A stretch of 32,000 nucleotides of DNA from Nitrososphaerota archaeon (GCA_028867785.1 JAGWFS010000002.1:116678-148677); one strand, 5' to 3'; numbered from the stretch's first letter, positions 13,301 through 27,562 are shown. Made by a program: numbers and translations. Notes: generated from the sequence alone by a model not told the origin.

Positions 13301-13302
13301 GG

Positions 13303-13953
13303 TTAGTCCCACTTGGACCAAGCGGCCATCCACCTATAAGTCCAGGTTGTAAGTTTGCAACCTAGTGCGGTTATAGGCACAGTCAGGACCGCTCCAGCGC
13401 CTGCAGCAAGAGCCACAGGACTGTCATAGAACTTGCCTACCTGCGGTTCTATTGGGGTCATGTATGGTGGAAGTGTTGTTCTTGGATATTTGAAAGCAGT
13501 CTCCAACGGATCATTTATTGTCAGTAAATTGAGCATGTTGAACATTGGCAGAGACATTCCACACAGCACGCCGCCTACCAAGATCAACATGTGCTTGTTT
13601 CTCTTGGTTGCCCAATATGCAAGATCCATCAGTATGGCTGACGGTATGAATATTGGTACGACGATGAAGCTGTACGGATATCCTAGGGAGAACCACGCAC
13701 CTTTTGCAATCCATATGTACACTGTCATTATCAGCGCATAGTAGGTTGCCGTTCCTGGCACGCCAGTGAACGTAAGGTAGTATGCTGCACCGACGGCGAG
13801 CATCGTTGACTGGCCTATGGAGAAAATCACAAACGATGTCCAGGCCCAGTCGGTGTAGAACTCATAGTCTCCCGTGTTGATTGTCAACAAGGTTGAGTTG
13901 ACTGCTACAACTACTATGAATAAGTAGTGTGTGCATCTTCGTAACCAGACCAT
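13303..13953 (-). CDS. amoA: Ammonia monooxygenase subunit A (archaeal type)
   Basis: The 216 aa are near-collinear with archaeal AmoA as I know it: MVWLRRCTHYLFIVVVAVNSTLLTIN.GDY.FYTDWAWTSF...FTGVPGTATYY...AKGAWF.LGYPY.FIVVP...YWATKRNKH...MFNM.NLL...DPLE.AFKYPR.TLPPYMTPIEPQVGKFY.SPVAL..GAGAVL.VPI.ALG.KL.TWTYRWMAA. Confidence 0.97.
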   Translation of the reverse strand: MVWLRRCTHYLFIVVVAVNSTLLTINTGDYEFYTDWAWTSFVIFSIGQSTMLAVGAAYYLTFTGVPGTATYYALIMTVYIWIAKGAWFSLGYPYSFIVVPIFIPSAILMDLAYWATKRNKHMLILVGGVLCGMSLPMFNMLNLLTINDPLETAFKYPRTTLPPYMTPIEPQVGKFYDSPVALAAGAGAVLTVPITALGCKLTTWTYRWMAAWSKWD

Positions 13954-13974
13954 TTGATTTCCAATTGTGTTGTG

Positions 13975-13987
13975 ATTTTATTTAAAA
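13975..13987 (-). promoter_or_regulatory. Putative amoA TATA box
   Basis: The minus strand reads ttttaaataaaat, 22-34 nt upstream of the amoA ATG. This implies a leaderless or very short-leader mRNA. Confidence 0.5.
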
Positions 13988-14217
13988 CCTGACAGTCAAC
14001 CATTAAATGTCATCATGACACAATAAAGAACAATCTGCGGAGTTGACTGTGAATTACTTCATAATTCCAGCGTCTCAGCCAGACAAAACTCCGTAGATTA
14101 ATTATTGAAAAATTGTGCTACGATGAGTTACATTTAATTTCATTGTATTTCATGCAGCCCAAATGACAACAGCAAAAAATTTTAAAAAATATTGTGCATG
14201 ATCATATTTAAGAAAAG

Positions 14218-14232
14218 ATTAACTATGTTAAT
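14218..14232 (+). promoter_or_regulatory. Shared promoter-proximal motif, copy 3 (attaac-tat-gttaat, perfect palindrome)
   Basis: It has the same TAAC-N3-GTTAAT core as copies 1 and 2. It is followed by the TATA-like aaaataaata and ends 46 nt before the ATG at 14279. Confidence 0.4.
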
Positions 14233-14278
14233 CAGAAAATAAATAGTAACTAGCAAAAAAATTAAGCCTAGATACCTG

Positions 14279-14485
14279 ATGGAATTTCAATTATTAAATA
14301 TTAAAAAGATAAACAAATGGATCTTCATCCCGATTATTCTTGCCATCTTGGGCTCTACATCATTTGAAGCAACAAGGATCCACGACTCGGAGTTGTTCAT
14401 TGCTTCCGTAACTATGCTTGCACTTGTGTGCTGGATAACATTTGTTAGTTTGTGTGTAGCGGGTGTTGGAAGAATTCTAAAGTAG
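14279..14485 (+). CDS. Small membrane protein (68 aa, 2 TM), divergent from amoA
   Basis: It has two hydrophobic helices (WIFIPIILAILGSTSF; VTMLALVCWITFVSLCVAGV) and the upstream motif. Confidence 0.45.
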   Translation: MEFQLLNIKKINKWIFIPIILAILGSTSFEATRIHDSELFIASVTMLALVCWITFVSLCVAGVGRILK

Positions 14486-14633
14486 ACTCAAAAACGCTTG
14501 CAATTGATTGCTGGCAGAATTAGAACCGACTCGACACAGAACAATATTGCGTTCAAATGAAAACAATTGATATCAAAATACATTCCGTGCTTTATAATGG
14601 ATATAATAATGACCTTGCCCAATCCATAATATA

Positions 14634-15029
14634 GTGAAAAGCAAGATATCTGACATTCTTGCGATTGTTGCCATGGCCCTCCTGGTTACTTATATTGCAG
14701 ACGCAGCGGTGGGACAGGGAAAGGCGGGATTTCTACCTATGAGCGCAGAGCAGAGGGGAATGATATTTGGTATGACGTCCATTGTTCTGTTCTTTGCATC
14801 GTTTGGAACCGGATTTGGCCAAATGTCAAAACTTGCAACATTCCTTCTGATTGCAGGAGGCGCCCTGATGGGGACTTCCGTACTGGGGGCTACCGCAATG
14901 GGACATGGCGGACTTGCACACATCTCTGCATCGTTTGCAGGAATAATAGTAATAGGATATGTCATAATGGGGCTTGGAATATTCAAGCTGATCTACAAGA
15001 ACAGGACTGCCCAGAAGAACATTCACTAG
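14634..15029 (+). CDS. Hypothetical integral membrane protein (about 4 TM, Gly-rich)
   Basis: The 131 aa (GTG start in the track; an alternative ATG lies at 14673) contain four hydrophobic, Gly-rich segments. No family was recognised. Confidence 0.55.
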   Translation: MKSKISDILAIVAMALLVTYIADAAVGQGKAGFLPMSAEQRGMIFGMTSIVLFFASFGTGFGQMSKLATFLLIAGGALMGTSVLGATAMGHGGLAHISASFAGIIVIGYVIMGLGIFKLIYKNRTAQKNIH

Positions 15030-15188
15030 ATCTTTCCTTGTATGAATAGACAAGACAAAAGAAGATCGAATCACAACCCATTTGGGTTGATGGGAAACAG
15101 TCAGGCCTAAAATGATTTAAAAATTGGGTAACATTGGTTCACAAATATTAAATTTGTAATGCGGACTGGTGTATTGTGAGAGACTGCC

Positions 15189-16523
15189 ATGTCAGGCGGA
15201 TCAACAAGCGGTAAAAATGTGAAGAAAGGATTTACAAAAAAGAACACTGTCGTGTTTGCAACAGTGGTTACTGTCTCCATTGTGTCAATATTCTATTTGC
15301 TGTCGCCTTGTGCCGTAATGCCATGCGTATCTGCAGTCAACATCATACACAGTGCGTCTGCCCAAAGGCAAAACCAGCTTGTTGATTCCAACGGCCAATC
15401 ATCGTCGCAGCAACCCCGGCTTACCCTTCCACAGCTCTATAAACAGACCCAAGACTCGGTGGTGGAGATACAAAGCACGGCTGCAAACCCTGACTCTTAT
15501 ATTATAATAAACGGTGTGCCATCCAACGAAAATACCACCATGCTTGGCTCGGGATTTTTTTATGATGATAGCGGCCGCATAGTTACAAATGCGCATGTGG
15601 TAGGAGAGGATCATGTGGTACATGTAACCCTCACTGACGGCAATATCTATACAGCAAAAGTAGTTGGAAAAGACCCGTACAATGATCTAGCCGTGGTGCA
15701 GATAATTGATAATTTTACCGGTGAAAAAATAATACCATTGCAGCTCGGAGACTCTTCCCACCTTGAGGTAGGGCAGTCTGTAGCCGCAATAGGCAATCCG
15801 TTTGGTCTTGAGGATACCATTACTAGCGGCATCATATCGCAGCTTGGCCGGTCTCTTGTTGACGAGGAAACGGGCAGATTTTCCATTCCTGATGTCATTC
15901 AAACCAGCGCTGCAATAAACCCGGGAAACTCTGGCGGACCGCTTCTTAACATGTTCGGTCAGGTAATAGGGATGAACACTGCAATAAAGACTGATACGGG
16001 CAACTTTGCAGGAATAGGGTATGCGATTCCGTCAAACCAGATTGCCAGGATAGTGCCAATCCTCATAAAGGACGGAACGTACAAGCATCCCTGGCTGGGT
16101 ATTGTGGGAAGAAGCCTGACGCCGGATATTGCCCTTGTAAACGGGCTTGCAAGAAACTTCAAGGGTGTTGTAGTAGAGAAGGTTTCAACAGACAGCTCTG
16201 CCTCCAAGGCAGGTCTTGAAGCTGCGACTGATGATCAGGACGGCATGCCACATGGAGGGGACATAATAGTCTCAGTTGACAGGCATCCAGTCAAGTCTGT
16301 TTATGACATCCTGAGTTATCTGGATGATAACAAATCCGTAGGGGATACAATGATTCTTGGAATAGACAGGGACGGCAAGATGATTGACGTAACTATGACA
16401 TTACAGGCAAGACCTCCTCCTGTGTCGCCTACTCCTCCAACCCCAACATCAAGCCCTGATTTTCCACAAATCCCAAGCTTTCCACAGATTCCAGGGTTTC
16501 CACAAATTCCGAACTTTCCATAA
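15189..16523 (+). CDS. htrA: HtrA/DegP-family serine protease (trypsin-like domain plus PDZ), membrane anchored
   Basis: It has an N-terminal TM anchor and catalytic-triad contexts TNAHVV, DLAVVQI and GNSGGPLLN. A PDZ-like region (WLGIVGRSL...GDIIVSVD) follows, then a Pro-rich C-terminal tail. Confidence 0.9.
   Translation: MSGGSTSGKNVKKGFTKKNTVVFATVVTVSIVSIFYLLSPCAVMPCVSAVNIIHSASAQRQNQLVDSNGQSSSQQPRLTLPQLYKQTQDSVVEIQSTAANPDSYIIINGVPSNENTTMLGSGFFYDDSGRIVTNAHVVGEDHVVHVTLTDGNIYTAKVVGKDPYNDLAVVQIIDNFTGEKIIPLQLGDSSHLEVGQSVAAIGNPFGLEDTITSGIISQLGRSLVDEETGRFSIPDVIQTSAAINPGNSGGPLLNMFGQVIGMNTAIKTDTGNFAGIGYAIPSNQIARIVPILIKDGTYKHPWLGIVGRSLTPDIALVNGLARNFKGVVVEKVSTDSSASKAGLEAATDDQDGMPHGGDIIVSVDRHPVKSVYDILSYLDDNKSVGDTMILGIDRDGKMIDVTMTLQARPPPVSPTPPTPTSSPDFPQIPSFPQIPGFPQIPNFP
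16461..16520 (+). repeat. 18-bp tandem repeat, 3.3 copies, coding for (FPQIPx)3FP at the HtrA C-terminus
   Basis: The units are tttccacaaatcccaagc, tttccacagattccaggg, tttccacaaattccgaac and a partial tttcca. Confidence 0.9.
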
Positions 16524-16588
16524 ATCAAAGGATTGACTGGATTATGACGGTAAAGAGAACGGCGTGGAAAGTTTGGCATCTTTTCTTA

Positions 16589-16974
16589 TCAGATGAGAAA
16601 ATTCATCATAAGGAATTTCTCGCGGTGGTTTTGTCCTTTCGACTGCCGATTTGACATCTTTTTCATATGTTTCAACAATCTCCCTATCAATTCTTCAAGT
16701 ATCTTGGTTAAGTAATGTTGTATTAGGAATTTGGCTTCAATTTTGTGTCTTTCAAACACTTGAAGGTTTTTGTGCCAATTGTACCAATTCATAGTCCAGT
16801 CTTTTTTATCAAAATCTATCGCTTGTTAGATAATTTTCTCCAAATACCAAACAAATCTTCTATAGGCATGGATTTCTTCTTTTTGTAAAATTCTATATGA
16901 TCATCCATCGTTTTTCTTGTCAGTTCATAGAGATCTTTGTATTCTTCAAACATCGAGTCATTTCTCTTATCCAT
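16589..16974 (-). pseudogene. Hypothetical gene split by one frameshift
   Basis: A 52-aa ORF (16816-16974, MDKRNDSMFEEYKDLYELTRK...) is followed by the 67-aa ORF (16589-16792). The latter's frame stays open upstream to 16825 (QAIDFDKKDWT-MNWYNWHK...), so a single indel would join them. Confidence 0.3.
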
Positions 16975-17112
16975 TAAATTAAATCATAACTTATTTTTTA
17001 ATAATTAGGACTATTAAACCTCTGTCAATCCATATATTTCCCATATTTATGGCATATATTATTGCTATAAAATACTAAATATTAATATATTAGTCTATAT
17101 TATACTATATGT

Positions 17113-17673
17113 ATGAATAACGAACCGAACACAATTTCAACAGCAACCCTTGTGTGGCTGGCAACAGCTCTCTTACATAAAGAGAGGAAAGAAGCTGAAG
17201 CATTTGAGTCAAGTGAGATTTTTGAGAAGGTAAAGAGTCTGGATCTATCGTCAGTATCTGACTCGACAATAAAAATGCACATTTCATTACACTGCGTTTC
17301 AAATGCACAATCTCAGCCAGACACCCACAAAAAACTCTTCAGAATCGCAAGGGGATGGTACAGACTTTACAGAGAGGGAGATCTATTTCACCCAAGCAGA
17401 GCACAGGGGAGAGTTCTACCTATAGCCGAAGAATTGCCATCAAAATACAGGCATCTGATTGAATGGTACAATGATGATTATTCAAAAAAACAAACTCAAC
17501 CAGCCCAGCCTAACAATGCAATATTTGTAAATATTGAAAATAATAAAACAATAATGCTACCAAATGAAATTGCCGAGTTTTTGCAGGTAGAGGACGGGGA
17601 TTATATTGCATTTATTACAAAATCAACAGATGAAGTTGTAATCAAAAAGGCCAGAATGAAGCTAGAAATATGA
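17113..17673 (+). CDS. DNA-binding protein: unknown N-terminal domain fused to a C-terminal SpoVT/AbrB-like domain
   Basis: The C-terminus IMLPNEIAEFLQVEDGDYIAFITKSTDEVVIKKA fits the AbrB swapped-hairpin pattern. The N-terminal ~120 aa (..LFRIARGWYRLY..) suggest a winged-helix-like module, which is unverified. Confidence 0.55.
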   Translation: MNNEPNTISTATLVWLATALLHKERKEAEAFESSEIFEKVKSLDLSSVSDSTIKMHISLHCVSNAQSQPDTHKKLFRIARGWYRLYREGDLFHPSRAQGRVLPIAEELPSKYRHLIEWYNDDYSKKQTQPAQPNNAIFVNIENNKTIMLPNEIAEFLQVEDGDYIAFITKSTDEVVIKKARMKLEI

Positions 17674-18256
17674 AATGAAGCAATATGATGGATAACATGG
17701 CAGAGGACTCGATACAATATCTTTTACAACCAATGTCCTGATAAATGGGAATAGACAAGAAAGAAAAGCTTTTGTTTTACATTTTTTCTGTAAGGTTATG
17801 ACAGCTCAATCGGTGGCCTCGCTTAGCTTTTCGGATGCCCAATGAGCTTGTGAGCATTTAATAGATGATATCTACGAATTTGTTGATTCGATCAATATTG
17901 TATTCCCAGGTCATGGCTATGACGTATTGGCGCGGCTCATTTGGTATCTATGAAAGCAAGTATATTAGCTGCACATGGTCCTTTCATCCAAAGTTATGTT
18001 TGTGAGACATTCATTGGTGAATTTCTTCATACTTTCACTCATATTGTGTATCCAGATTTCTTGTATGGATTTTTTGTGTTGTTGACGATATCAGGTTTGT
18101 AGACCTTCTCGGCTCAATCTTGTGGTTCGATTTCTTCAGAGTAGAATCTTCTGTCGTCTATCTTTCCTTCTTTTCTGCGCTTTTCAATTTCTGGAGAAAT
18201 CCAGATGCTCATTATGGAATTTAAAAAATTCTTGGTCCCTTCTTCATCTAACGACA

Positions 18257-18550
18257 TTATTCTTCTCTCAAGTTGTTTTCAATGTACTCAATAATTTCAC
18301 TTTTCATTCTGGGATTCAGCGACGCCGTGGTGTTCCCTTTGTGCAAAATCAGAAATCCCTCATTTGCGAGCTCCTTTACTTTTTTCTTGACGTTCTTTCC
18401 GTTGTTCCTTACCACCTGTCCAAGCCAGTTTGCCATGGTATCGATAGGAAAATAGTGCTCTCCCCACCTTCCCTTACGCATGATGAAGTTGAGAATGAGG
18501 GCCCTGAGTTCAGGGTCTTGGTAGTCTCTTTTCATAAGTACACTTAACAT
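18257..18550 (-). CDS. Putative winged-helix DNA-binding protein
   Basis: The 97 aa (probable start at MKRDYQ...) contain ...VKKKVKELANEGFLILHKGNTTASLNP, which resembles a recognition helix plus wing. It is divergent from 18598-18960. Confidence 0.45.
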   Translation of the reverse strand: MLSVLMKRDYQDPELRALILNFIMRKGRWGEHYFPIDTMANWLGQVVRNNGKNVKKKVKELANEGFLILHKGNTTASLNPRMKSEIIEYIENNLREE

Positions 18551-18597
18551 ACCTTTAGAAGTCTAGATTTAAATACTTTTGAAATGGTAGTAGTAGT

Positions 18598-18960
18598 ATG
18601 GATAGCACCGGGGGTAGTAGGGGGGGCAGCGAATACGCGTCACTGATAACAAAAGTTCTAGGCTATTCCCCAAAGATGAAGATCCTCGATTATCTTCTAG
18701 ATTTCCCAACAAACGATTTCACAAAGAAAGAGATCATAGATGCACTGGGGATGAGCAAGCAGACCTTCTACAAGTACTTTGACGACCTGGAGGATGTTGG
18801 AATTGTAAAGGTCAACAGAACAATTGGAAAGGCAAGGCTCTACATGGTTAACCGTGGCAATCCTGTTGTCAAAGATCTGGCGAATCTGGAAAGAAAAATA
18901 TCCATGCAAATAGCTGACGCAGAAGAAGAAAAGCTCGGCAAACCAATCCCTGCAAAATAA
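18598..18960 (+). CDS. Winged-helix transcriptional regulator (ArsR/TrmB-like pattern)
   Basis: KILDYLLDFPTNDFTKKEIIDALGMSKQTFYKYFDDLEDVGIVKVNRTIGKARLYMVN follows an HTH-plus-wing pattern. The size and context are typical of archaeal mobile-element regulators. Confidence 0.65.
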   Translation: MDSTGGSRGGSEYASLITKVLGYSPKMKILDYLLDFPTNDFTKKEIIDALGMSKQTFYKYFDDLEDVGIVKVNRTIGKARLYMVNRGNPVVKDLANLERKISMQIADAEEEKLGKPIPAK

Positions 18961-19024
18961 TCATGTGATCAAAGAGATGGATATCTGATCAACCTTTTAA
19001 CTCTGCCACGCACATTGGAAGATA

Positions 19025-19294
19025 ATGGTTAAAACAAAATCAATCGAAGAATCTGTAGAAAACTACGTTGGCAGCATATCAGTTGGCATGCTCAAGTACA
19101 AAAAACACCTAATGCGCGATAAAAATTTCAGCGAAGCCGATGCCATTGATAAGACATTAGAATATGGCATGGGGATGCTAAGATCTGGTTTAGGCGGTAC
19201 TATCACACCGCAGCGAGCAGCAGCATTGTTTAGAGAACAGGCCGACATTAACACTGCACTTGCAAACATATGTGAAAAGGAAGAACATTCTTAA
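19025..19294 (+). CDS. Hypothetical protein (89 aa)
   Basis: An ORF of ordinary composition immediately upstream of the ATP-grasp gene. No family was recognised. Confidence 0.4.
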   Translation: MVKTKSIEESVENYVGSISVGMLKYKKHLMRDKNFSEADAIDKTLEYGMGMLRSGLGGTITPQRAAALFREQADINTALANICEKEEHS

Positions 19295-19377
19295 TTAATA
19301 TCAAAAAATAAGACTGTTCATTGATTGAACACCGTAAAAGAATTGGAAGAACTATAGAAAAAACTATTCGTAGACAA

Positions 19378-20372
19378 ATGCATGACACGCTTACAATAGG
19401 AATCACTTTTGACACTAGGAAAGATTTCAAATTCGAACATGATGATCCATGGGACTGGGATATTGAACTCCAGGTTTCAATGTCGGTCGATGACATCTCA
19501 AGAGCACTAGAGGATCTGGGCCACAAGACAGTTTTGATTGGAAGCGGTACCACTCTAGTAGATAATTTCTCAAAACACAAAAATGAAGTTGATCTCGTTT
19601 TCAACATCGCGGAAGGAAGATTTGGAGGGGTAGGGAAGGGCAGGTACCTGCATTGCTTGAGATGGCAGGCATTCCATTTGTCGGTTCTGATTCATATGCT
19701 ACATCAGTTGCCATGAATAAATGGCATACAAAAGTAATTGGGCAAACTTATGGAATACGTACCGCACCGTTTACCGTCATAGAAAACACGGGTTTCATAA
19801 AAAAAGAAAACATCCAAAAATATCCTGTGATTGCAAAGCTTTGCTATGAAGGCAGCAGCATGGGATTGGACGAAAAATCAAAGGTTTACGATTTTAATAG
19901 TCTGCAGAAACAAGTCAAGTATCTTCTTAGAACATACAAGCAGCCTGTCTTGGTAGAGGAATTCATAACGGGAACCGAGATTGACGTGCCAATCATAGGA
20001 AATAGACCAGAGACAGTCTTTGGCATCGTTGGCATCTCTCTTGATAACAAAGAGATGGGAGACCGTCATCTCACATCAAAGATAGTATATGATGACAAGT
20101 ATTGTTTTCATTATCCAATGAACGCCTCTTTTGAAACGGAGGCAAGTCAAATGTCTCTAAAAATGTACGATATTTTGGGATGCAGGGATTTTGGTAGGAT
20201 GGATATGAGAATCAATTCCAATGGGGAGCCATATCTTCTTGAAGCACATGCACTTCCATATATCGGAAAACATAGCAGCTTTAATCACATAGCAGAAAAA
20301 AATGGAATGAAGTACAGGGACATGATTGGTATGATTCTTGACAATGCAATTGCCAGATACGGTTTTAATTAA
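19378..20372 (+). pseudogene. D-alanine--D-alanine-ligase-like ATP-grasp enzyme, interrupted by one frameshift
   Basis: The Ddl-like N-domain (..VDLVFNIAEGRFGG) is in frame 1. The continuation (REGQVPALLEMAGIPFVGSDSYATSVAMNKWHTK...PVIAKLCYEGSSMG...VLVEEFITGTEIDV) is in the frame of ORF 19653-20372. The switch lies at the G4 run 19627-19630, and adding one G restores FGGGREGQVPALLEM. Confidence 0.7.
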
Positions 20373-22903
20373 TCCCAGAGGTGTATGTCACATGTATAGT
20401 AATCCAGTTCATAGAACCATTTTTGTAACCTCTCAGTTTTGAAAATCTCTGAACTTTTCCTGGCGATTTCAGCAGATTCCTTGCCGAAACCTTTTCTGTC
20501 CAGTATTTTTGATAATAGTCGGTATCTCTTTGCAAGGATCAGTTCATCATCGTATTTGTAGTTGTGCGGTTTGAACTTCTCTAGCCACACCTGTGCCTCA
20601 TCAAACTCGCCTAGCTCGTAATGTATGGCTGCTCGGTTTAATCCATAGTAGTCATTCATCAGGCCTTCTGGATATGACAGAACCAAAGGTTCAAGATGTA
20701 TTATTACTTTTCTTGCTCTTTCTACATCGCCCGTCTGTCTTAACACATTTGCAATGTTCATGTTGACAAATATTTCGTTAAACAGTTCGCTGACATTGGC
20801 GTTTGCATCCTCAAAAAACTGCAAAGCCTTGACATAGTCATCCCTCTGTTGGTAGACCAGACCTAAGTTGTTGAGAGGTATGTCTACCTCCGGTGAATCC
20901 AAGCTTCTGAAGATCTCAAGGCTTGAACCAAGGTACTTTTCAGCATCGTCAAACTTTGCAATGTAAAAGCTCTCTGCGCCCATGTTGTTAAGACACCTTG
21001 CTTTTTCTATCTTCATTGAATATCTTTCAAATGAATCAAGTGCGTTTTTCATGAACTCTATCGCTCTTCTAGATTCGTAAATGATACCAGACTTTCTCTG
21101 CAGCTTGGCCAGTCCTATTGCATCGTTTGCCAAGTTGAAATTAATCTGACTCTTTCCAAACGCATCTGCGGCCTTTTCTCTGTGGCCAAAATGATCATAA
21201 ACCGTGGTAAGAAAAGAATAGGCCTCTCCCAATTTGTTTACATTTCCAATTTTTTCATAAATTCTCAAACTCTCCTCTAACGAAAAAATTGCTTTTTTTC
21301 CTGCATCGCCTGTTCCTTCGTATCTCCAGCATCTTCCCAAAAGCAGATTTGCTTCTGCCTTTTGTATCTCTGACAAATTAGATGTCTGAAGCAAATTATT
21401 GAGGTTTATAATGCATGATGACGTGTTGTTATTGCCAAGCAACGATCTTGCATATCCAATCTTGAGCAAGATGTGCGCTGACTCTGAAATCTGTACTCTT
21501 TTTTCCTTTATCAATTGAAAACATTCTTCGTATTGTTTTACGGAATTTGAAAAAAAGTAGTTATCAAATGACGTTTCTGCTGACAGTTCTAGATACTTTA
21601 GTGCTTTCTCCCACTCGCGACCATTGTAGTAATGATACGACGTGATAAAGGGATCTTTGTGTTTGCCAAAGTTGTTTTCTAGGAATTTTGCAATCTCTCT
21701 GTGGCATTCAACTGCAAGCGTGCCAAGCCCTGAATAGATCGTCTCCTGCGTCTTTCTGTGGTCAAAAACAAAAGTTGTACTGTCTCCTACTCTCTTTACT
21801 ATGGAATAGATATTCTCTAGGTCCTCAAGCATGTGAAAGATCTCCATCTTGTCTTTTCTCATAAAGTTGCTTATCGTATCCAGATCAAATTGATATCCAA
21901 GCACAGATGCATATGCAAGAAGGTCTCTTGCGCCTGGCAAGTCTCTGTAAACCTTCCCTAAGCGCTTGCAAATTGTCTCAGACAAGTTTTCTGGTAGTAC
22001 GTTTTCATTTAACAAATCAGAAATTACCCAATAACCATTATTGTCAATAGTTGCTGCTTTTGATTCTCTGAAGAGACCAAGGAGTGATTTCAGGAAAAAT
22101 GGGTTTCCGCTAGTTTGCTTGTACAGCAAATGCACCACATCCTTGCTGAACTTGTGTGGTCCAAGGAAACCCTGTATGAAGTTGGGGTATAGTTTTTCCG
22201 GAACTGCATCCAGTTTTATTATTGCGGATTTCTTACTGTCAAGTTTGGACAGGGTTTCAAAATATTTCCTTGCATCTAATTCCTTTTGGCTTGTAACAAA
22301 TCCTGTCCTGTATGACATGATGAACATCACTTTGTTTGTGACTTTTCTCATTAGATATGACAACAACTCAAGTGAAGTACTGTCAAACCATTGAATATCT
22401 TCTGCATGCAGCACGATTGTTTTCTTTCTTATAATCTTTTGAAATATTGCTAAATAATTAGAAAACGCATAATGGCTATTATCCACGGAATATCTGTCAA
22501 CATCAGACATTCCGCGAATGGTCTTTGTGATTTCCTGCGCTGCACCAACATAAGGTTCCAATGTTGGGACAAGTTTGGCCAAGTTTAGAATTGTATCAAG
22601 CAGGTCTCCCTTGGTAAAATCTCGATAATCTGATAAAAGCACTTTGACCATCTCTAAGAAAGGAAACAGTGGTGATTCTTGCTCCTCGTATCCTTTTGCA
22701 GTGAGTATGATTATGTCATCTGATTTTACTGAAAAAAGAAATTTGTTCACAAGAGAAGTCTTTCCCATTCCTGCTTCTCCTAGGACAAATACAAATTGGC
22801 TCTGTAAGGAATCGTTTACCTTGTAGAAAACCGCATTCAGAGTTTCCAGAACATCTTCTCTATCCAAGAAAAACTCTTGGCTTGTTACCGTTTTTTCCTT
22901 CAT
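20369..22903 (-). CDS. STAND-type NTPase (AAA_16-like P-loop domain) with a long C-terminal TPR array
   Basis: The 844 aa carry Walker A GEAGMGKTS (22754-22780), a Walker B-like TIVLHAEDIQWFD, and the GNPFF motif typical of AAA_16/MalT-like ATPases. The C-terminal ~400 aa are TPR-like repeats. I saw no effector or HTH domain. Confidence 0.85.
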   Translation of the reverse strand: MKEKTVTSQEFFLDREDVLETLNAVFYKVNDSLQSQFVFVLGEAGMGKTSLVNKFLFSVKSDDIIILTAKGYEEQESPLFPFLEMVKVLLSDYRDFTKGDLLDTILNLAKLVPTLEPYVGAAQEITKTIRGMSDVDRYSVDNSHYAFSNYLAIFQKIIRKKTIVLHAEDIQWFDSTSLELLSYLMRKVTNKVMFIMSYRTGFVTSQKELDARKYFETLSKLDSKKSAIIKLDAVPEKLYPNFIQGFLGPHKFSKDVVHLLYKQTSGNPFFLKSLLGLFRESKAATIDNNGYWVISDLLNENVLPENLSETICKRLGKVYRDLPGARDLLAYASVLGYQFDLDTISNFMRKDKMEIFHMLEDLENIYSIVKRVGDSTTFVFDHRKTQETIYSGLGTLAVECHREIAKFLENNFGKHKDPFITSYHYYNGREWEKALKYLELSAETSFDNYFFSNSVKQYEECFQLIKEKRVQISESAHILLKIGYARSLLGNNNTSSCIINLNNLLQTSNLSEIQKAEANLLLGRCWRYEGTGDAGKKAIFSLEESLRIYEKIGNVNKLGEAYSFLTTVYDHFGHREKAADAFGKSQINFNLANDAIGLAKLQRKSGIIYESRRAIEFMKNALDSFERYSMKIEKARCLNNMGAESFYIAKFDDAEKYLGSSLEIFRSLDSPEVDIPLNNLGLVYQQRDDYVKALQFFEDANANVSELFNEIFVNMNIANVLRQTGDVERARKVIIHLEPLVLSYPEGLMNDYYGLNRAAIHYELGEFDEAQVWLEKFKPHNYKYDDELILAKRYRLLSKILDRKGFGKESAEIARKSSEIFKTERLQKWFYELDYYTCDIHLWD

Positions 22904-22979
22904 TGGGTTAAGATTTAAGCTGCTTTAGAACTAATTATGTTTTGATATGAACATAATTTAATGCACATAAGGTGTATTC

Positions 22980-23420
22980 ATGCAACGAGATCATGTTAAG
23001 ATTAAACTTGCCGGTTACAGAGACGCTGAAAGTTTTCTCAGACTTGAGGCAAAGTGCTTTGACATGAAAGCGAACCGTGACACGATATATTTTTGGACGC
23101 CTGCAGTGAGTTACCTTTGGTCATACAAGGCAGAGATGAACGGAAAGATTGTCGGTGGAATAATTGCAACACCCACTAGGGATGGATGTTGGTATATCAA
23201 TTCCTTGTTTGTACACCCAACATATAGAAAGCACGGTATTGCTACTAGGCTAGTTTCAAGAATCATCAAAGTTGCAGGAAAGAAAAAAATCATTCTTGAT
23301 ACTTTTAAGGACAGGCCGTATCTTTTAGAATTCTACGGCAAGCGAGGGTTTAGGATCAAGAAATCGATGAGAAATTACTACAAAGACAACGAAAACCGAT
23401 ATCTCTTGGAGCATGTGTGA
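22980..23420 (+). CDS. GNAT-family N-acetyltransferase (RimI-like size)
   Basis: The 146 aa contain the motif A region INSLFVHPTYRKHGIATRLVSRII and a C-terminal YGKRGFRI. It is divergent from the STAND gene across a 76-bp spacer. Confidence 0.85.
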   Translation: MQRDHVKIKLAGYRDAESFLRLEAKCFDMKANRDTIYFWTPAVSYLWSYKAEMNGKIVGGIIATPTRDGCWYINSLFVHPTYRKHGIATRLVSRIIKVAGKKKIILDTFKDRPYLLEFYGKRGFRIKKSMRNYYKDNENRYLLEHV

Positions 23421-23497
23421 TTTTCTACAATCTGTATTCGAGAAAAGGATTATTCATACTTTACAACCGAATTATTTTATCCTTCCACTAAATGAAA

Positions 23498-23746
23498 TTA
23501 ACCGTTTTTTCTTTTTACAAATAATTTATTTGAAACAAAATATCCCAATTCCCAAACGAGTTTGATCATGTGACAAAAATCTTGCTCTAATTTACGACTA
23601 CTTTTGGTTTCTGTAGGATCGTATGAACACCAAGAGTCTGGCAAAACTTTTTCATCTTTGTCATTTATTGTTGCCTTTGCGGTTATGAATTCCATTCCTG
23701 CATCATCCGATATGTCATATACTTCTTTTTCAAAAGATTCACTCAT
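23498..23746 (-). CDS. Hypothetical protein (possibly the read-through tail of the decayed recombinase locus)
   Basis: This 82-aa ORF is in the same frame as ORF 23813-24106 and separated from it by a single TAG (23810-23812). No family was recognised. Confidence 0.3.
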   Translation of the reverse strand: MSESFEKEVYDISDDAGMEFITAKATINDKDEKVLPDSWCSYDPTETKSSRKLEQDFCHMIKLVWELGYFVSNKLFVKRKNG

Positions 23747-23812
23747 GTCTTTTTTCTTAGTTAAAGAATTATATCCAAATAAAAATCCACTATGCGCAAC
23801 CCTGTTTCGTTT

Positions 23813-24510
23813 CTATCTTGTGTTAAATAGATCAGAAAATCTCTTGTTCTCTTTCAAATCTATTTTCAGTATCTTTTTGTAAACTTTATTCAGATCCTCA
23901 AAATTACCTCTTCCTCTTTCTAATGCAAAACTGATCAGATCTTCTTTTGGAATATCGAATTTCTTGATTTCTCTTCCTTTTATTTTGGTATTTGTTATGT
24001 TTTCTTTAATAGCGATGAAAATAGCTTCACGTAGAAATTCTTCTAATATGCCCCATATGGAGATTTGACACAAATAGTAAAAATTGGGAATGATAACGGC
24101 TGCCATGGTATACGACTTTACTGAAATCTCTTGAGTCGAGCTTCATCCACCTGAAAAATATTTTCAAAATCTTCTTGCGGTCAAATGTCGTGTGGGTCTC
24201 ACGACCTGAATCATCGGAATATAATTCTACAATCTTTGTAACAAGATTATCTACATCTGACTTTGTCACATGTTTCCATTCTACTGGAAGTAATCTGCTC
24301 AATGTCAAAAGAACTTGAAGATGTTTGAGTCTTGTCGCTTTTGTAAGAGACTCCCTTATCATCAGTCTGTCGTACTCTTCGATTATTTTTATTGTGTCTT
24401 CAGATATTTTCTGGTCGTTGCGAATTAGTTTTTTTAATTCCTTCTATTCTCCTGTCATAATCGTAAATGTCGATTTCATTTTTTGTCAATCGAGAAAACT
24501 TTTGTTTCAA
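23813..24510 (-). pseudogene. Tyrosine recombinase (archaeal XerA/integrase-like), decayed and lacking a recognisable catalytic C-terminal half
   Basis: The N-terminal SAM-like domain pattern is ISEDTIKIIEEYDRLMIRESLTKATRLKHLQVLLTLSRLL..WKHVTKSDVDNLVTKI...T..DRKKILKIFFRWMKL. A frameshift lies in the T7/A7 run 24429-24435, and a second frame change lies near 24110. In the core-domain start (ISIWGILEEFL...NTKIKGREIKKFDIP) the expected Arg is not evident, and I found no HxxR or Tyr region. Confidence 0.55.
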
Positions 24511-24574
24511 GTATGCATATTACGTCGAACAGGGCTTTAAAGTGAATTAATGGCGCCAGGTAAGAGTGTTAAGA

Positions 24575-27562
24575 TTAGTGCTTTGCAGTAAGCCTGTCGT
24601 GAATCTGAGCCAGGATCAATTCTGCCTTGTCTTTATTTTCAAACGCCTCCTCTTTTTCATCCATGATTGCGTCAATCTCGTAGCTCTTGTCGACCAGCAC
24701 GTTTGCAACATGATCGTCAAGTGTGGCGTTTCCTATCAGATAATATGCAAATACTGTGTTCTTCTGTCCTATCCTGTGCAGCCTGTCCTCAGCTTGTCTG
24801 TGTATTGCAGGACTCCAGTCAAGCTCGGCAAATATGACGTATCTTGCCTTGCTTAGGTTTATTCCGACGTTTCCGGCCCGCAGTCCTGCAATCATGAGCT
24901 TTGTCTCACCGTTCTGGAATCTGTCTATGTTGTCCTGTCTTTCCTTGTCCGACTGTCCCCCTATGATTGACGAAGGAGAATATTCATGAAGGCTCTTGTG
25001 CAGCAGGGCATGTATTGCCTTGTGATGGCAGAATACAACGACACTTTCCTCTATCTCCATTATGTTTTTGACAAACTCGATGACATGGGGCAGCTTTGCA
25101 GCCCCGGCTGCCTGTCTCTCGCTCTGTATTGCTCTCTTGTATGATGAAAACTTGTCAAATGCAGACGTTGCAGTTTTTTGCTCTTCTTCAAGGCGCTTCC
25201 AAATCTTGTCAAGCTCTGAATAGTAATAGTTAATGTCAGAGTCGATAAACTCCTTGTATCTGACCTTTTCCTTCAACTCCTTTAATACGTCTGATTTTTT
25301 GCGCCTGAGCATGACATGTTTTCGCAACTCTTCTCCCAAACTTGCCCGCTTATTTTCAAGCACTATTGCCTTGCCTTTTTCGTTTACATAACAGAAATAC
25401 TCGCAAAACTCGTCAAAGCTTCCCAGCAGTCCCGGCCGCAGTATGTCTACTATGGGCCATATCTCAGAGCCCCTGTTGTAAATCGGAGTGCCGGACAGAC
25501 CAATTCTGTATTTTATGGATTCAAGTCCTGCAAGTTTTTTTACTGCGGAATATTTCTTGGTTGATTTTGAACGAAGGTGCTGCACTTCATCGCATACCAG
25601 GGTCTTTATGTTCAATTTTGAAAGGTCGTCCAGTCTCTTGTATAGCAGATCATAGTTTATGATGTAAATGTCATACTTGCCAATCTCCTGTGACTTGCCT
25701 GTTCGAATGAGCACTGATGATGGATGCTGGTCTTCAACAACTCGGCCGTTTCGGCTCCTTTTTTTCAGGAACTTCTGGATCTCTCTCTGCCAGTTGCTCA
25801 ATGTTACAAGAGGTGCAACTATGAGAGCTGGAAATGTTTGTTTTTCTGTAGCCAAGTATGATAGAGTCTGAACGGTATTATGGGTAATGATGCCATTGGC
25901 AACATAGTTATGAGTATCTGGAACAGACAAGTCGTAGACATAACCTGCATAATGCTTTGTCTCGATCGATTTGATTGTACACCAGTTGATCGACTCCAAA
26001 GACATTTCTCGTAACTGACTTGAAAGTTCGTACTCGTGAAGTGATTCCAACTTGTTGGAGACAGAAATGGCCAACTGTTTACTCATGCCTTGCGTGTACT
26101 TGTACGGAGTGTAGAGGTCAAGTGAACGTAATGGTATTCTAGTCTCTGCAATTTTTCGAACAATTTTCTGCGATGGTATGCCTTCAATGTCTGTATTGTG
26201 CTTTTTTGATGCAAGTTTTTCTAACGCCCTTTGTTTGTATGCGGTAAGAAGAGTGAACTGTTCGTGGAATTTAGATACAGAATTTCCGCCAAATGTGCAT
26301 GTGTAGTATTTTCTACGTTTTCTAGAACCGTTTGATGCATATTTCTTTGCAATTCTAATGCGAAGCCAGATTCCAAAGTGTAAGAGAATTTCACGCAACG
26401 TAAATGCGATGGATTTGCTTGCCGTAGTTAGTTCACAGTGAGTCTTGCCTACGTGGCCTTCTGCATCAAAAATGGCCTGAACAAACGTCTTCTGGGTTTC
26501 TAAAGGAGCCTCGAGTATTGCTCTTGGGACAATTTTGTCCTTTGATTTCTTGCCCCACTTATATCCCCATTTTGAAAATAATTTGTAAAATTGAGTTGTA
26601 GCAATAACGAAAGTTGTTTTATCCTTTCTTGGTTTGGGCAGTTCTATTCCTTGACATTTTCCTAACTGTCTCACTCTTGATAATATTTTTGAATCAGAAT
26701 TATAAAATCTTCCATGAGGATATCTATTATTTTCAAAATACTCGTATCCCTCTGAAATCTGCCATGCAATTAATTCAGCCACCTCTGGTGATAGCGAATT
26801 TTTTCCTACATGCAAAGTTTTTGAAGGAACTGCCACCTTGTCGTCCATGCTTAGTTTTCCAGCCATCTTCCAGCCTTCTGGTGTGTGCAATCTATGACGT
26901 TTTGTACATTCTATCGACAAGCCGTCTGCAAGTGTGATCTTTACTATATCCTCGTCTATCTTCTGCCGAAAGACTCTTGAGACCTTCTTAGTTACAATCT
27001 TTCTTCCATCAAATGATTGGACATTGATTGGGACTTTTAGTCGGCCCCATTCCTCATGTCTACTTCTGTCCGTTACTGTTGCTTCATCCCAGATCTCTTT
27101 AATCGTAACTTGGCTATTTCTGGTACTTATCAAAGTATTTTGTACTATGCATTTTCCCAATCCCATTTCGTCAGCCAATAGTGCGTTGCCAGAAGATTTT
27201 AACAAAAAGTCCAGTCCCTCTCTCTGAAAATTGAGCAGGGTTCCCCTGAACTGCTCGCCAGGATTTGCCTTTCGCAGCTTTTCTATTCTGGTCCATTTTC
27301 TTTTTCGAACTGTCATATGCCTTGTCTTTCTCTGCCAGATGTTTCTTGATTTTATCTCTAGCGGGTACGTCTCCATTATCCATTTTATCTTCTGGACGTT
27401 TTGCTCTGTATCGGGAACTATGGCCTCTTCAGGTCCACCACCGTACCAGGCATGAGGTATGACCCGCGCCACCATGCTTACGGCCCTCGAGCCGGTAAGC
27501 TTCCAAGTCCAGTTTTTTGAGTAAATGTCCAAGACATACTCTAGGGTTCCAAATTCTTTCAT
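24575..27562 (-). CDS. SNF2-family (SWI2/SNF2, Rad54/RapA-like) helicase containing an intein; predicted mature extein 570 aa
   Basis: Motif I DEMGLGK|...|TVQTL is split by the insert. Motif II is LVCDEVQHL, motif III is LSGTPIYN, and the C-terminal helicase motifs are GLRAGNVGINL....DWSPAIHRQAEDRLHRIGQ. Confidence 0.9.
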   Translation of the reverse strand: MKEFGTLEYVLDIYSKNWTWKLTGSRAVSMVARVIPHAWYGGGPEEAIVPDTEQNVQKIKWIMETYPLEIKSRNIWQRKTRHMTVRKRKWTRIEKLRKANPGEQFRGTLLNFQREGLDFLLKSSGNALLADEMGLGKCIVQNTLISTRNSQVTIKEIWDEATVTDRSRHEEWGRLKVPINVQSFDGRKIVTKKVSRVFRQKIDEDIVKITLADGLSIECTKRHRLHTPEGWKMAGKLSMDDKVAVPSKTLHVGKNSLSPEVAELIAWQISEGYEYFENNRYPHGRFYNSDSKILSRVRQLGKCQGIELPKPRKDKTTFVIATTQFYKLFSKWGYKWGKKSKDKIVPRAILEAPLETQKTFVQAIFDAEGHVGKTHCELTTASKSIAFTLREILLHFGIWLRIRIAKKYASNGSRKRRKYYTCTFGGNSVSKFHEQFTLLTAYKQRALEKLASKKHNTDIEGIPSQKIVRKIAETRIPLRSLDLYTPYKYTQGMSKQLAISVSNKLESLHEYELSSQLREMSLESINWCTIKSIETKHYAGYVYDLSVPDTHNYVANGIITHNTVQTLSYLATEKQTFPALIVAPLVTLSNWQREIQKFLKKRSRNGRVVEDQHPSSVLIRTGKSQEIGKYDIYIINYDLLYKRLDDLSKLNIKTLVCDEVQHLRSKSTKKYSAVKKLAGLESIKYRIGLSGTPIYNRGSEIWPIVDILRPGLLGSFDEFCEYFCYVNEKGKAIVLENKRASLGEELRKHVMLRRKKSDVLKELKEKVRYKEFIDSDINYYYSELDKIWKRLEEEQKTATSAFDKFSSYKRAIQSERQAAGAAKLPHVIEFVKNIMEIEESVVVFCHHKAIHALLHKSLHEYSPSSIIGGQSDKERQDNIDRFQNGETKLMIAGLRAGNVGINLSKARYVIFAELDWSPAIHRQAEDRLHRIGQKNTVFAYYLIGNATLDDHVANVLVDKSYEIDAIMDEKEEAFENKDKAELILAQIHDRLTAKH
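25877..27151 (-). mobile_element. Intein (425 aa) with a LAGLIDADG homing-endonuclease domain, inserted in helicase motif I
   Basis: Residues 138-562 of the ORF form the insert. It has Cys1 (CIVQNTL), block B T-x-x-H (ECTKRHRLH), LAGLIDADG-like motifs LIAWQISEGYEY and FVQAIFDAEGHVG, and blocks F/G VYDLSVPDTHNYVANGIITHN followed by +1 Thr. Excision restores DEMGLGKTVQ. Confidence 0.88.

What the first reader, a model, noticed from the sequence alone, without database searches (positions are those of the whole stretch)
25877..27151. Apparently intact LAGLIDADG intein splitting the P-loop (motif I) of an SNF2-family helicase
Seen in the sequence: the 995-aa ORF reads ..NALLADEMGLGK|CIVQNTLIST...(425 aa)...VYDLSVPDTHNYVANGIITHN|TVQTLSYLATEK.. 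Removing residues 138-562 restores DEMGLGKTVQ, the canonical SNF2 motif I.

The insert has every element needed for splicing:
- Cys1
- block B TxxH (TKRH)
- a penultimate His and terminal Asn
- a +1 Thr

It also has two LAGLIDADG-type endonuclease motifs with acidic residues (ISEGY, FDAEG), so both splicing and homing activity may be retained.

Established knowledge: inteins preferentially occupy conserved catalytic motifs, and SNF2-gene inteins have been catalogued in some bacteria.

Inference: I am not aware of a described allele at this site in ammonia-oxidising archaea. The host gene also abuts a decayed integrase and an accessory island, so the locus may be a hotspot for selfish elements.
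Basis: partly seen in the sequence, partly recalled or inferred. Interest (0 to 1): 0.72.

Follow-up and report, generated by a model that had tools for sequence, protein, structure and literature searches.

The report
Mobile intein splitting archaeal SNF2 helicase
A self-splicing, apparently still mobile protein intron (an intein with a LAGLIDADG homing endonuclease) interrupts the ATP-binding loop of a SNF2 helicase in a Nitrosotalea-type ammonia-oxidising archaeon. It is a genuine but ordinary member of a known family that occupies the same site in bacterial SNF2 helicases.

Summary
ORF 24575..27562 (-) encodes a 995-aa SNF2 precursor. Residues 138-562 (window 25877..27151) form a 425-aa class 1 intein inserted at GLGK|T of motif I.

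- **Intein identity.** Curated intein and LAGLIDADG profiles pass their thresholds. All splicing residues and both endonuclease acidic residues are present. The predicted fold matches bifunctional inteins (TliVMA, PI-PfuI).
- **Empty site.** The closest genome (L025, about 92% DNA identity) lacks exactly these 1275 bp and reads DEMGLGKTVQ.
- **Homing cycle.** Across Nitrosopumilaceae the site is empty, holds a full-length intein, holds a decayed full-length intein, or holds one of at least 10 differently deleted mini-inteins. This needs at least 16 gains or losses on the host-gene tree.
- **Lateral transfer.** The endonuclease plus C-terminal splicing segment is 95% identical to a Nitrosotalea contig whose host gene is only about 81% identical (pS 0.17 versus 0.74; dN/dS 0.11).
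- **Relatives.** The nearest outside relatives are bacterial SNF2 inteins at the same site, which NCBIfam curates as "intein-prone".

It is therefore a new member of a known kind. Close relatives are already in public databases and machine-annotated, though apparently not discussed in the literature. The adjacent accessory island is real. The "decayed integrase" is only weakly supported.

The parts
24575..27562 (-). SNF2-family helicase precursor gene (995 codons plus stop), a single uninterrupted ORF
   Evidence: ORF list and translation. Pfam SNF2-rel_dom E 1.6e-37 and Helicase_C E 6.8e-17. Orthologues of 570-572 aa occur throughout Nitrosopumilaceae.
27152..27562 (-). N-extein (aa 1-137), ending in motif I ...DEMGLGK
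   Evidence: Collinear with L025 up to the insertion point. Residues 94-137 match the last positions (543-589 of 589) of NCBIfam NF058636 'sll1366 family intein-prone helicase', which ends at this Lys.
25877..27151 (-). Intein, 425 aa, class 1, with an embedded LAGLIDADG homing endonuclease
   Evidence: Pfam PF14890 at 86-89 bits, PF14528 at 33-35 bits, TIGR01445 and TIGR01443. Absent as an exact 1275-bp block from L025. AF2 model with pLDDT 80.8 matches TliVMA, PI-PfuI, PI-PkoII and PI-SceI.
26816..27151 (-). N-terminal half of the splicing (Hint) domain, intein aa 1-112, with Cys1 and block B T83/H86 (TKRH at 26894-26905)
   Evidence: It is retained in all mini-intein alleles. It is only 67% DNA-identical to L081.
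26252..26815 (-). LAGLIDADG endonuclease core, intein aa about 113-300. Motif 1 is ELIAWQISEGY (26744-26776, acidic E134). Motif 2 is VQAIFDAEG (26456-26482, acidic E231).
   Evidence: Pfam LAGLIDADG_3. pLDDT is above 90, and helices 122-134 and 217-231 each end at the acidic residue. Foldseek matches I-DmoI. E/D is conserved at both positions in relatives. The region is deleted in mini-inteins.
26027..26251 (-). Helical linker region, intein aa 301-375, modelled with low confidence. It is kept in many 207-234-aa mini-inteins.
   Evidence: AF2 pLDDT is 41-60 over aa 330-390. Alignment of alleles.
25877..26026 (-). C-terminal part of the splicing domain, intein aa 376-425, with block F (D407, H414) and block G (H424, N425)
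   Evidence: TIGR01443. Residue positions. Conserved in all 30 alleles examined, except the block F pattern, which is met in 29 of 30.
25877..26842 (-). Laterally shared segment (gene nt 721-1686: endonuclease plus C-terminal Hint). It is 94.8% identical to contig L081, whereas the exteins are 81-83% identical.
   Evidence: pS is 0.167 here versus 0.68-0.74 in the exteins. The breakpoints lie at gene nt 702-752 and at the C-terminal junction.
24575..25876 (-). C-extein (aa 563-995 plus stop). It starts with Thr+1 of motif I (TVQTL) and carries the rest of the SNF2 ATPase core.
   Evidence: Collinear with L025.

Best explanation
Window 25877..27151 encodes a class 1 intein with an embedded two-motif LAGLIDADG homing endonuclease. 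It sits between Lys and Thr of the Walker A / motif I sequence GLGK|T of a conserved SNF2-family helicase in a Nitrosotalea-clade ammonia-oxidising archaeon.

**Inferred mechanism.**
1. The 995-aa precursor is translated and the Hint domain folds.
2. Cys1 performs an N-to-S acyl shift at K137-C138, assisted by T83, H86 and D407.
3. The thioester is transferred to the hydroxyl of Thr+1.
4. Asn425 cyclises, assisted by H414 and H424, and releases the intein.
5. An O-to-N shift yields a 570-aa helicase with a restored DEMGLGKTVQ P-loop.
6. The freed 425-aa protein acts as a site-specific endonuclease on intein-less alleles (target about ...GGATTGGGCAAA|ACTGTGCAGAC...). Repair from an intein-bearing copy then spreads the element (homing).

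**Shown here.**
- Identity of the intein and its exact boundaries.
- Intactness of all catalytic residues.
- Exact absence from the closest genome.
- A full homing-cycle spectrum in related genomes.
- Purifying selection on the endonuclease.
- Recent lateral sharing of the endonuclease-containing segment between diverged hosts.

**Inferred only.** Actual splicing, actual DNA cleavage, and the route by which DNA moves between cells.
For: - **Profiles.** The matches exceed curated cut-offs, with boundaries at residues 138 and 562/563.
- **Catalytic residues.** C1, T83, H86, D407, H414, H424, N425 and Thr+1 are all present. They match the class 1 definition in PMC4031507. C1, CTxxH and the terminal HN are kept in 30 of 30 alleles.
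- **Empty site.** L025 is about 92% DNA-identical in the flanks. It aligns up to both junctions and lacks exactly the intein.
- **Distribution.** Of the 79 related species-level loci classified, 29 carry an intein at GK|C...HN|T: 11 of 424-425 aa with intact motifs, L007 of 428 aa with decayed motifs, and 17 minis. Among the top protein hits there are at least 10 distinct deletion architectures. The host-gene tree needs at least 16 presence/absence changes over 72 genomes.
- **Endonuclease.** E134 and E231 lie at the ends of predicted helices and are E/D in most relatives. dN/dS is about 0.1 among full-length alleles. It is 0.11 on the unsaturated WIN-L081 comparison.
- **Mobility.** The intein segment has pS 0.17 versus extein pS 0.74 for WIN-L081. 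The same pattern holds for L008-L014 (0.20 vs 0.74), and 14 of 55 pairs show it to some degree.
- **Fold.** Foldseek top hits are the bifunctional inteins 7qss (E 2e-24), 1dq3 and 2cw7. I-DmoI matches the endonuclease core.
Against: - There is no experimental evidence for splicing or cleavage.
- Thr+1 is a weaker nucleophile than Cys or Ser, so splicing could be slow.
- Pfam LAGLIDADG_3 covers only the second motif region.
- The AF2 model is poor for aa 330-390.
- No elevated divergence (co-conversion tract) appears in the extein flanks relative to L025.
- The lateral-transfer signal covers only part of the intein. It therefore reflects recombination between two occupied alleles, which the endonuclease itself cannot initiate.
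- dS among most full-length alleles is saturated, so those dN/dS values are rough.
- The 80 loci kept were ranked by match to an intein-containing query, so the fraction of occupied alleles is inflated.
Confidence: 0.85

Rival explanations
1. The intein still splices but its endonuclease no longer cuts DNA. The element would then be a vertically inherited passenger, and the endonuclease fold would be kept only because it is needed for correct folding and splicing.
For: Many alleles in related genomes have lost the endonuclease. One full-length allele (L007) has lost key motif residues (AEENEY, FDAGG). No co-conversion signal is seen next to the window's intein. Cleavage cannot be tested here.
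Against: Both acidic residues are intact. dN/dS is about 0.11 on a recent, unsaturated branch covering the endonuclease. That same segment is shared at 95% identity between hosts whose genes are about 81% identical. The sister genome is empty, which suggests recent gain.
Confidence: 0.2
2. The 425-aa segment is a permanent, non-splicing domain insertion, or the gene is a pseudogene disabled by the insertion.
For: Splicing has not been demonstrated. Thr+1 inteins can be inefficient.
Against: The insert breaks the Walker A motif, which is invariant in all orthologues. The exteins remain under strong purifying selection: pN is 0.034 and pS about 0.7 against L081. All splicing residues are conserved in 30 of 30 alleles, including those that lost the endonuclease. 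The ORF is intact.
Confidence: 0.03
3. The intein has been co-opted as a conditional (for example redox- or metal-sensitive) switch. It would hold the SNF2 helicase inactive until splicing is triggered, as reported for mycobacterial DnaB inteins.
For: It sits in the P-loop, so the precursor must be inactive. Cys1 is catalytic, and Cys82 next to block B is kept in 30 of 30 AOA alleles. The literature argues that P-loop inteins may be retained for function (PMC4760082; PMC6195587, listed).
Against: Most orthologues, including the sister genome, do without the intein. Position 82 is simply a hydrophobic position (V/I/C/T/L) in the wider family. The patchy distribution and decay series are those of a selfish element.
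Confidence: 0.04
4. The insertion is an assembly chimera or artefact in this window.
For: The exact 995-aa sequence is not in the 15-billion-protein collection.
Against: The reading frame is continuous through both junctions. About 30 independent assemblies carry an intein at the identical site. A 995-aa allele from cultured Ca. Nitrosotalea sp. TS belongs to the same 90% cluster as P0018.
Confidence: 0.01

Closest known systems
Bacterial SNF2 motif I inteins (for example in the sll1366 / SCO1167-type helicases; NCBIfam NF058636 'sll1366 family intein-prone helicase')
   Same: The insertion point is the same, between K and T of (D/E)xGLGK|T. The inteins are homologous: P0142 is 48% identical over all 425 aa, and P0147/P0148 are 36% identical. 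Those two pass the NF058636 cut-off, and that model ends at the same Lys. They share the Cys1...HN|T junctions and the LAGLIDADG endonuclease.
   Different: The host protein is a short (570 aa) archaeal SNF2, not a member of the sll1366 family (15 bits against a 550-bit cut-off). The AOA inteins form their own clade at 59-97% identity to each other.
TliVMA / PhoVMA inteins, PI-PfuI and PI-PkoII (archaeal bifunctional inteins with solved structures)
   Same: They show the best sequence and fold matches: 7qsu E 3.9e-13 by sequence and 7qss E 2e-24 with TM 0.65 by fold. They have the same two-domain Hint plus LAGLIDADG architecture.
   Different: Sequence identity is only 14-22%. The host proteins differ (V-ATPase, ribonucleotide reductase, DNA polymerase), and the source organisms are hyperthermophilic Euryarchaeota.
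Deinococcus radiodurans Snf2 intein
   Same: It is an intein in a SNF2-family helicase, and its splicing was shown experimentally (Southworth & Perler 2002, cited in PMC11219805).
   Different: Dra Snf2 is a class 3 intein (title of Brace et al. 2010, cited in PMC5222942). The window's intein has Cys1 and all class 1 residues. I did not compare the two sequences or their insertion sites directly.
P-loop inteins of other ATPases (DnaB-b, MCM-a, RFC-a; Novikova et al. 2016, PMC4760082)
   Same: They are inserted in the Walker A loop of an ATPase. Of the 85 relatives whose N-junction could be located, 79 sit at GxGK|C. This agrees with the P-loop clustering described in that paper.
   Different: The host families differ. 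SNF2/HepA inteins were listed only for bacteria (15 cases) and not among the top archaeal hosts.

Membership tests
Class 1 intein (Hint-domain protein-splicing element) | Cys or Ser at intein position 1 | tested here: met
   Cys at residue 138 of the precursor. TIGR01445 starts there.
Class 1 intein (Hint-domain protein-splicing element) | Block B Thr (B:7) and His (B:10) | tested here: met
   T83 and H86 (TKRH). Definition from PMC4031507. T in 133 and H in 142 of about 149 aligned relatives.
Class 1 intein (Hint-domain protein-splicing element) | Block F Asp (F:4) and His (F:13) | tested here: met
   D407 and H414 in VYDLSVPDTHNY. The assignment to F:4 and F:13 rests on D-to-H spacing recalled for the Mtu RecA intein, not on a tool result.
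Class 1 intein (Hint-domain protein-splicing element) | Penultimate His, terminal Asn, and Cys/Ser/Thr at C-extein +1 | tested here: met
   H424, N425 | T563. TIGR01443 at 40 bits against a 15.6-bit cut-off.
Class 1 intein (Hint-domain protein-splicing element) | Curated profile match above threshold | tested here: met
   PF14890 at 86.3 bits against 35.8. TIGR01445 at 38.8 against 24.5.
Class 1 intein (Hint-domain protein-splicing element) | Insert is absent from orthologues, and its removal restores a conserved host motif | tested here: met
   L025 lacks exactly 1275 bp. 91 of 120 orthologues read DEMGLGK|TVQ.
Class 1 intein (Hint-domain protein-splicing element) | Autocatalytic excision with extein ligation | not testable with these tools
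   This needs expression and mass spectrometry or a gel assay.
LAGLIDADG homing endonuclease (two-motif, monomeric, intein-embedded) | Two LAGLIDADG helices, each ending in an acidic residue | tested here: met
   E134 (LIAWQISEG) and E231 (QAIFDAEG) lie at the ends of predicted helices 122-134 and 217-231. E/D occurs at these positions in 148 of 158 and 165 of 171 aligned relatives.
LAGLIDADG homing endonuclease (two-motif, monomeric, intein-embedded) | Profile and fold match | tested here: met
   PF14528 at 32.7-35.2 bits against 22.5. Foldseek matches to I-DmoI, PI-PfuI and PI-SceI. The model is predicted, not solved.
LAGLIDADG homing endonuclease (two-motif, monomeric, intein-embedded) | Site-specific cleavage of the intein-less allele | not testable with these tools
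   This needs purified protein and the L025-type target site.
LAGLIDADG homing endonuclease (two-motif, monomeric, intein-embedded) | Population signature of mobility (patchy distribution; element younger than host gene) | tested here: met
   At least 16 state changes on the extein tree. Intein pS is 0.17 against extein pS 0.74 for WIN-L081.
SNF2 motif I allelic intein family (bacterial 'intein-prone' site) | Insertion between Lys and Thr of GLGK|T in SNF2 motif I | tested here: met
   The junctions are identical in P0142, P0147, P0148 and P0153.
SNF2 motif I allelic intein family (bacterial 'intein-prone' site) | Sequence homology of the intein itself to inteins at that site | tested here: met
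   P0142 E 3.6e-123 with 48% identity over 1-425. P0147 and P0148 about 36% identical.
sll1366-family helicase (host protein, NF058636) | Whole-protein score above the curated cut-off | tested here: not met
   15.2 bits against 550. Only the last 47 model positions around motif I match. The host is a different, shorter SNF2 protein.
SNF2-family ATPase (host) | SNF2-related N-lobe plus Helicase_C lobe with motifs I-VI | tested here: met
   PF00176 at 129.6 bits and PF00271 at 62.2 bits. Motif VI QAEDRLHRIGQ is intact.
Tyrosine integrase (neighbouring ORF 24027..24362) | Profile match, or the catalytic R..HxxR..Y domain | tested here: not met
   No Pfam, PADLOC or PHROG hit for the ORF. There is room only for an N-terminal fragment. 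Its homologue P0140 hits phrog_1 integrase weakly (E 1.7e-4).

The most novel reading that the evidence does not exclude
The intein is not merely selfish. It could serve as a stress-responsive (redox, metal or pH) post-translational switch that keeps the SNF2 helicase inactive until splicing is triggered in this acid-soil ammonia oxidiser.

A less radical version is partly supported here. The element is homing actively today, and its endonuclease module is exchanged between diverged Nitrosotalea lineages. That would make it a direct marker of cell-to-cell DNA exchange in a group with no known transfer mechanism and no genetic system, and a potential tool for it.
Probability: 0.05. Interest if true: 0.6.

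Novelty: new member of a known kind. Interest (0 to 1): 0.3.

Why it matters
As an object it is a textbook intein at a known intein-prone site, so it adds little to intein biology. Its value lies in the population picture.

- **Rarity in this phylum.** A 2023 survey found one intein, without an endonuclease, in 18 Thaumarchaeota genomes (PMC10643990). Here one gene shows every stage of the homing cycle across Nitrosotalea, Nitrosotenuis and Nitrosopumilus.
- **Evidence of gene flow.** The endonuclease module was exchanged recently between lineages whose host genes are saturated at synonymous sites. This is sequence-level evidence for homologous recombination and DNA exchange among ammonia-oxidising archaea.
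- **Practical uses.** If the endonuclease is active, its roughly 20-30-bp target in a conserved chromosomal gene could be used for marker insertion in organisms that lack genetic tools. The 163-aa natural mini-inteins with Thr+1 are candidates for protein engineering.

Tried and rejected
1. **Co-conversion tract.** I looked for elevated divergence around the insertion site against the empty sister allele L025. Identity is a uniform 87-97% per 100 nt on both sides, so there is no signal.
2. **att-like repeats.** I searched for direct repeats at the ends of the 10-kb island. Only short, low-identity chance matches appeared.
3. **Integrase reading of ORF 24027..24362.** Pfam (E up to 1), PADLOC and PHROGs gave nothing for the ORF itself. 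The big-database search found only three short unannotated homologues. One of these weakly hits an integrase PHROG. The claim is kept as weak.
4. **Cys82 as a redox partner of Cys1.** The position is generically hydrophobic (V/I/C/T/L) in the wider family, so the idea is downgraded.
5. **Word-indexed protein search with the intein alone.** It returned only 20 hits and missed the bacterial relatives. The exhaustive HMMER search was needed to find them.
6. **First extein tree.** It used a strict N-terminal anchor and kept only 23 taxa. I redid it with 72 taxa.
7. **dN/dS across all full-length alleles.** dS is saturated, so the values are rough. The WIN-L081 segment gave an unsaturated estimate.
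Full report
**Observation.** The minus-strand ORF 24575..27562 encodes 995 aa. Residue 138 is Cys and residue 562 is Asn. The junctions read DEMGLGK|CIVQNT...GIITHN|TVQTLSYL. Deleting the segment leaves a 570-aa protein with an uninterrupted DEMGLGKTVQ. The intein DNA is somewhat AT-richer than the exteins (39.2% versus 44.8% GC).

**Is it an intein?** Yes, by every test available.
- Pfam Intein_splicing scores 86 bits (cut-off 35.8) and LAGLIDADG_3 scores 33 bits (cut-off 22.5). SNF2-rel_dom spans the insert and Helicase_C follows.
- NCBIfam TIGR01445 (intein N-terminal region) begins at residue 138. TIGR01443 (C-terminal region) ends at residue 563.
- The class 1 definition in PMC4031507 is met in full: C1, T83 and H86 (block B), D407 and H414 (block F), H424 and N425 (block G), and Thr+1.
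- The two LAGLIDADG motifs carry E134 and E231. In an AlphaFold2 model (mean pLDDT 80.8, pTM 0.79, above 90 over the endonuclease core) these residues close helices 122-134 and 217-231.
- Foldseek against the PDB returns bifunctional inteins first: TliVMA 7qss (E 2e-24), PI-PfuI 1dq3, PhoVMA, PI-PkoII and PI-SceI. I-DmoI matches the endonuclease core. A sequence search of the PDB agrees.

**Empty and occupied alleles.** The spliced extein finds thousands of relatives.
- The top 120 (at least 82% identical) come from Nitrosotalea and other Nitrosopumilaceae. Of these, 91 are intein-free proteins of about 570 aa. The other 29 carry an insert at precisely GK|C...HN|TVQ.
- A scan of one genome per GTDB species returned 80 loci. 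Of the 79 classified, 29 carry an intein. Eleven are 424-425 aa with both acidic residues intact. One (L007) is 428 aa with decayed motifs. Seventeen are mini-inteins of 163-240 aa.
- The closest genome, MAG REEA19 (L025), is about 92% identical in DNA across the flanks. It aligns up to both junctions and lacks exactly the 1275 bp. Its site reads GGATTGGGCAAA|ACTGTGCAGAC.
- Aligning the inteins from the protein hits shows at least 10 different deletion architectures that remove the endonuclease. The splicing blocks stay intact.
- C1, CTxxH and the terminal HN are present in 30 of 30 alleles.
- On a neighbour-joining tree of 72 exteins, presence or absence needs at least 16 changes. The window's sister is the empty L025.
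- Together with L007, whose full-length copy has degenerate motifs (AEENEY, FDAGG), this covers the full homing cycle: empty, invaded, decaying, and reduced to a mini-intein.

**Is the endonuclease maintained, and does the element move?**
- Among 12 full-length alleles, dN/dS is about 0.1 in every region including the endonuclease. dS is saturated, so these values are rough.
- A cleaner test came from contig L081, which encodes P0018. P0018's 90% cluster includes the 995-aa protein of Ca. Nitrosotalea sp. TS.
- Against the window, the exteins are 81-83% identical in DNA (pS 0.68-0.74). The first 309 nt of the intein are 67% identical. Gene nt 721-1686 (endonuclease plus C-terminal Hint; window 25877-26842) are 94.8% identical, with pS 0.167 and dN/dS 0.11.
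- The left breakpoint lies at gene nt 702-752, in the conserved DKVAVPSKT stretch at the Hint/endonuclease boundary. The right breakpoint lies at the C-terminal junction.
- So this module shared an ancestor far more recently than the host genes, and it has been under purifying selection since.
- Other pairs show the same pattern: L008-L014 at 0.20 versus 0.74, and 14 of 55 pairs to some degree.
- This transfer is a recombination between two occupied alleles. The endonuclease cannot start such an event, because an occupied site is not a target. It proves lateral DNA exchange and mosaicism, not homing itself.
- I found no co-conversion signal in the extein flanks relative to L025.

**Relation to known inteins.**
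- An exhaustive HMMER search of 1.84 billion representatives gave 4649 hits. The best non-AOA hits are bacterial SNF2 helicases with the intein at the same site. P0142 reads ADDMGLGK|C...ITHN|TAQ and is 48% identical over all 425 aa. P0143, P0145, P0147, P0148 and P0153 follow.
- P0147 and P0148 pass the curated cut-off of NCBIfam NF058636, 'sll1366 family intein-prone helicase'. That model stops at the Lys of motif I. The window protein matches only its last 47 positions, ending at K137.
- Of the 85 hits whose N-junction I could locate, 79 sit at GxGK|C. This agrees with the P-loop clustering of inteins described by Novikova et al. 2016. That paper lists 15 SNF2/HepA inteins in bacteria and none among the top archaeal hosts.
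- The D. radiodurans Snf2 intein has been shown to splice and is a class 3 intein. The window's intein is class 1.
- A 2023 survey counted one intein, with no endonuclease, in 18 Thaumarchaeota genomes. I found no paper pairing Nitrosotalea with inteins.
- The alleles are nevertheless in public databases. IMG labels some 'intein/homing endonuclease/superfamily II DNA or RNA helicase'. The exact window sequence is not in the collection.

**Mechanism.**
- **Shown:** an intact class 1 intein with an intact-looking LAGLIDADG endonuclease splits the Walker A loop, and relatives demonstrate repeated gain, decay and lateral exchange.
- **Inferred:** the standard four-step splicing pathway (N-S shift at Cys1, transesterification to Thr+1, Asn425 cyclisation, O-N shift) restores GLGKT. 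The freed intein then cuts empty alleles and is copied in by repair.
- **Confidence:** about 0.9 that it is a functional splicing intein, and about 0.6 that the endonuclease is currently active.

**Context.**
- The window comes from an ammonia oxidiser: amoA lies at 13303..13953.
- Upstream of SNF2 are an AAA_assoc_C protein and ABC transporter genes, syntenic with L025 and L082.
- Immediately downstream of the SNF2 stop codon, about 10 kb (14476-24560) has no counterpart in L025. Within it, 16.5-24.5 kb has no DNA-level counterpart in any of the 80 loci.
- The island encodes an HtrA-like protease, DUF7669, a wHTH protein, an ATP-grasp enzyme, an 844-aa AAA_16-TPR STAND NTPase and a GNAT. PADLOC gave no strong hit to a defence system, and I found no flanking att-like repeats.
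Its homologue P0140 weakly matches an integrase PHROG over the shared region (E 1.7e-4). An N-terminal integrase remnant is therefore possible but unproven.

**Verdict.** The finding is real and correctly interpreted. It is a new (AOA) member of a known, widespread allelic intein family at a curated intein-prone site. The added value is the population-level evidence for an ongoing homing cycle and for inter-lineage recombination in ammonia-oxidising archaea.

Noticed in passing
L007:9994-14065 (MAG REEA70, JAGWHF010000002.1): The orthologous SNF2 gene carries two inteins. The motif I intein is 428 aa with degenerate LAGLIDADG motifs (AEENEY, FDAGG). A second, 359-aa LAGLIDADG-type intein sits in motif VI (QAEDR|CIKQ...SVHN|CHRIGQ), where Cys+1 replaces the usual Leu. 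SNF2 therefore has at least two intein sites in AOA.
   Followed up: partly
window 13287-14475 (amoA at 13303-13953, minus strand): The roughly 1.2-kb segment containing archaeal amoA (Pfam E 2.7e-105) is inverted relative to its neighbours when compared with the closest genome, L025. It is unclear whether this is a real inversion or a MAG assembly difference.
   Followed up: no
window 14476-24560: A roughly 10-kb block lies between amoA and the SNF2 stop codon. It is absent from L025, and its 16.5-24.5 kb part has no DNA match in any of the 80 related loci. It encodes an HtrA-like protease, DUF7669, a wHTH protein, an ATP-grasp enzyme, an 844-aa AAA_16-TPR STAND NTPase and a GNAT. No att-like flanking repeats and no strong PADLOC defence-system hit were found.
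   Followed up: partly
window 24027-24362 (minus strand): This 111-aa ORF resembles the N-terminal domain of a tyrosine integrase by eye, and its frame degenerates after residue 83. It has no profile hit of its own. Its homologue P0140 weakly hits phrog_1 integrase (E 1.7e-4).
   Followed up: yes
window 26842-27151 versus 25877-26842: The window's intein is a mosaic. Its first roughly 100 residues are only 50-75% identical to P0018 and resemble the QSFDG/RHRL type of P0022 and L007. The remainder is 93-97% identical to P0018. No close relative of the N-terminal part was found, so the direction of recombination is open.
   Followed up: partly
L029:1271-2977 (MAG SMAG_U8563): An intein-free allele reads DEMGLGK|SVMTLAYL instead of TVQTL at the insertion site. 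Its sister L007 (occupied) reads TIMTLAYL. This could be a target-site variant that resists cleavage, or a scar of intein loss.
   Followed up: no
window 16461-16532: An 18-nt tandem repeat (TTTCCACAAATYCCRRNN, 3-4 copies) lies at the 3' end of the HtrA-like protease gene.
   Followed up: no
L012, L028, L044, L045, L050 (Nitrosotenuis); L008, L014, L026, L027 (Nitrosopumilus and relatives): The same intein site is occupied outside Nitrosotalea. L012, L008 and L014 hold full-length inteins, and the mini-inteins have their own deletion patterns. L050 is inferred to be occupied only from its 2976-nt match length. None of the 13 loci titled Nitrosarchaeum that could be classified carries the intein.
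   Followed up: partly
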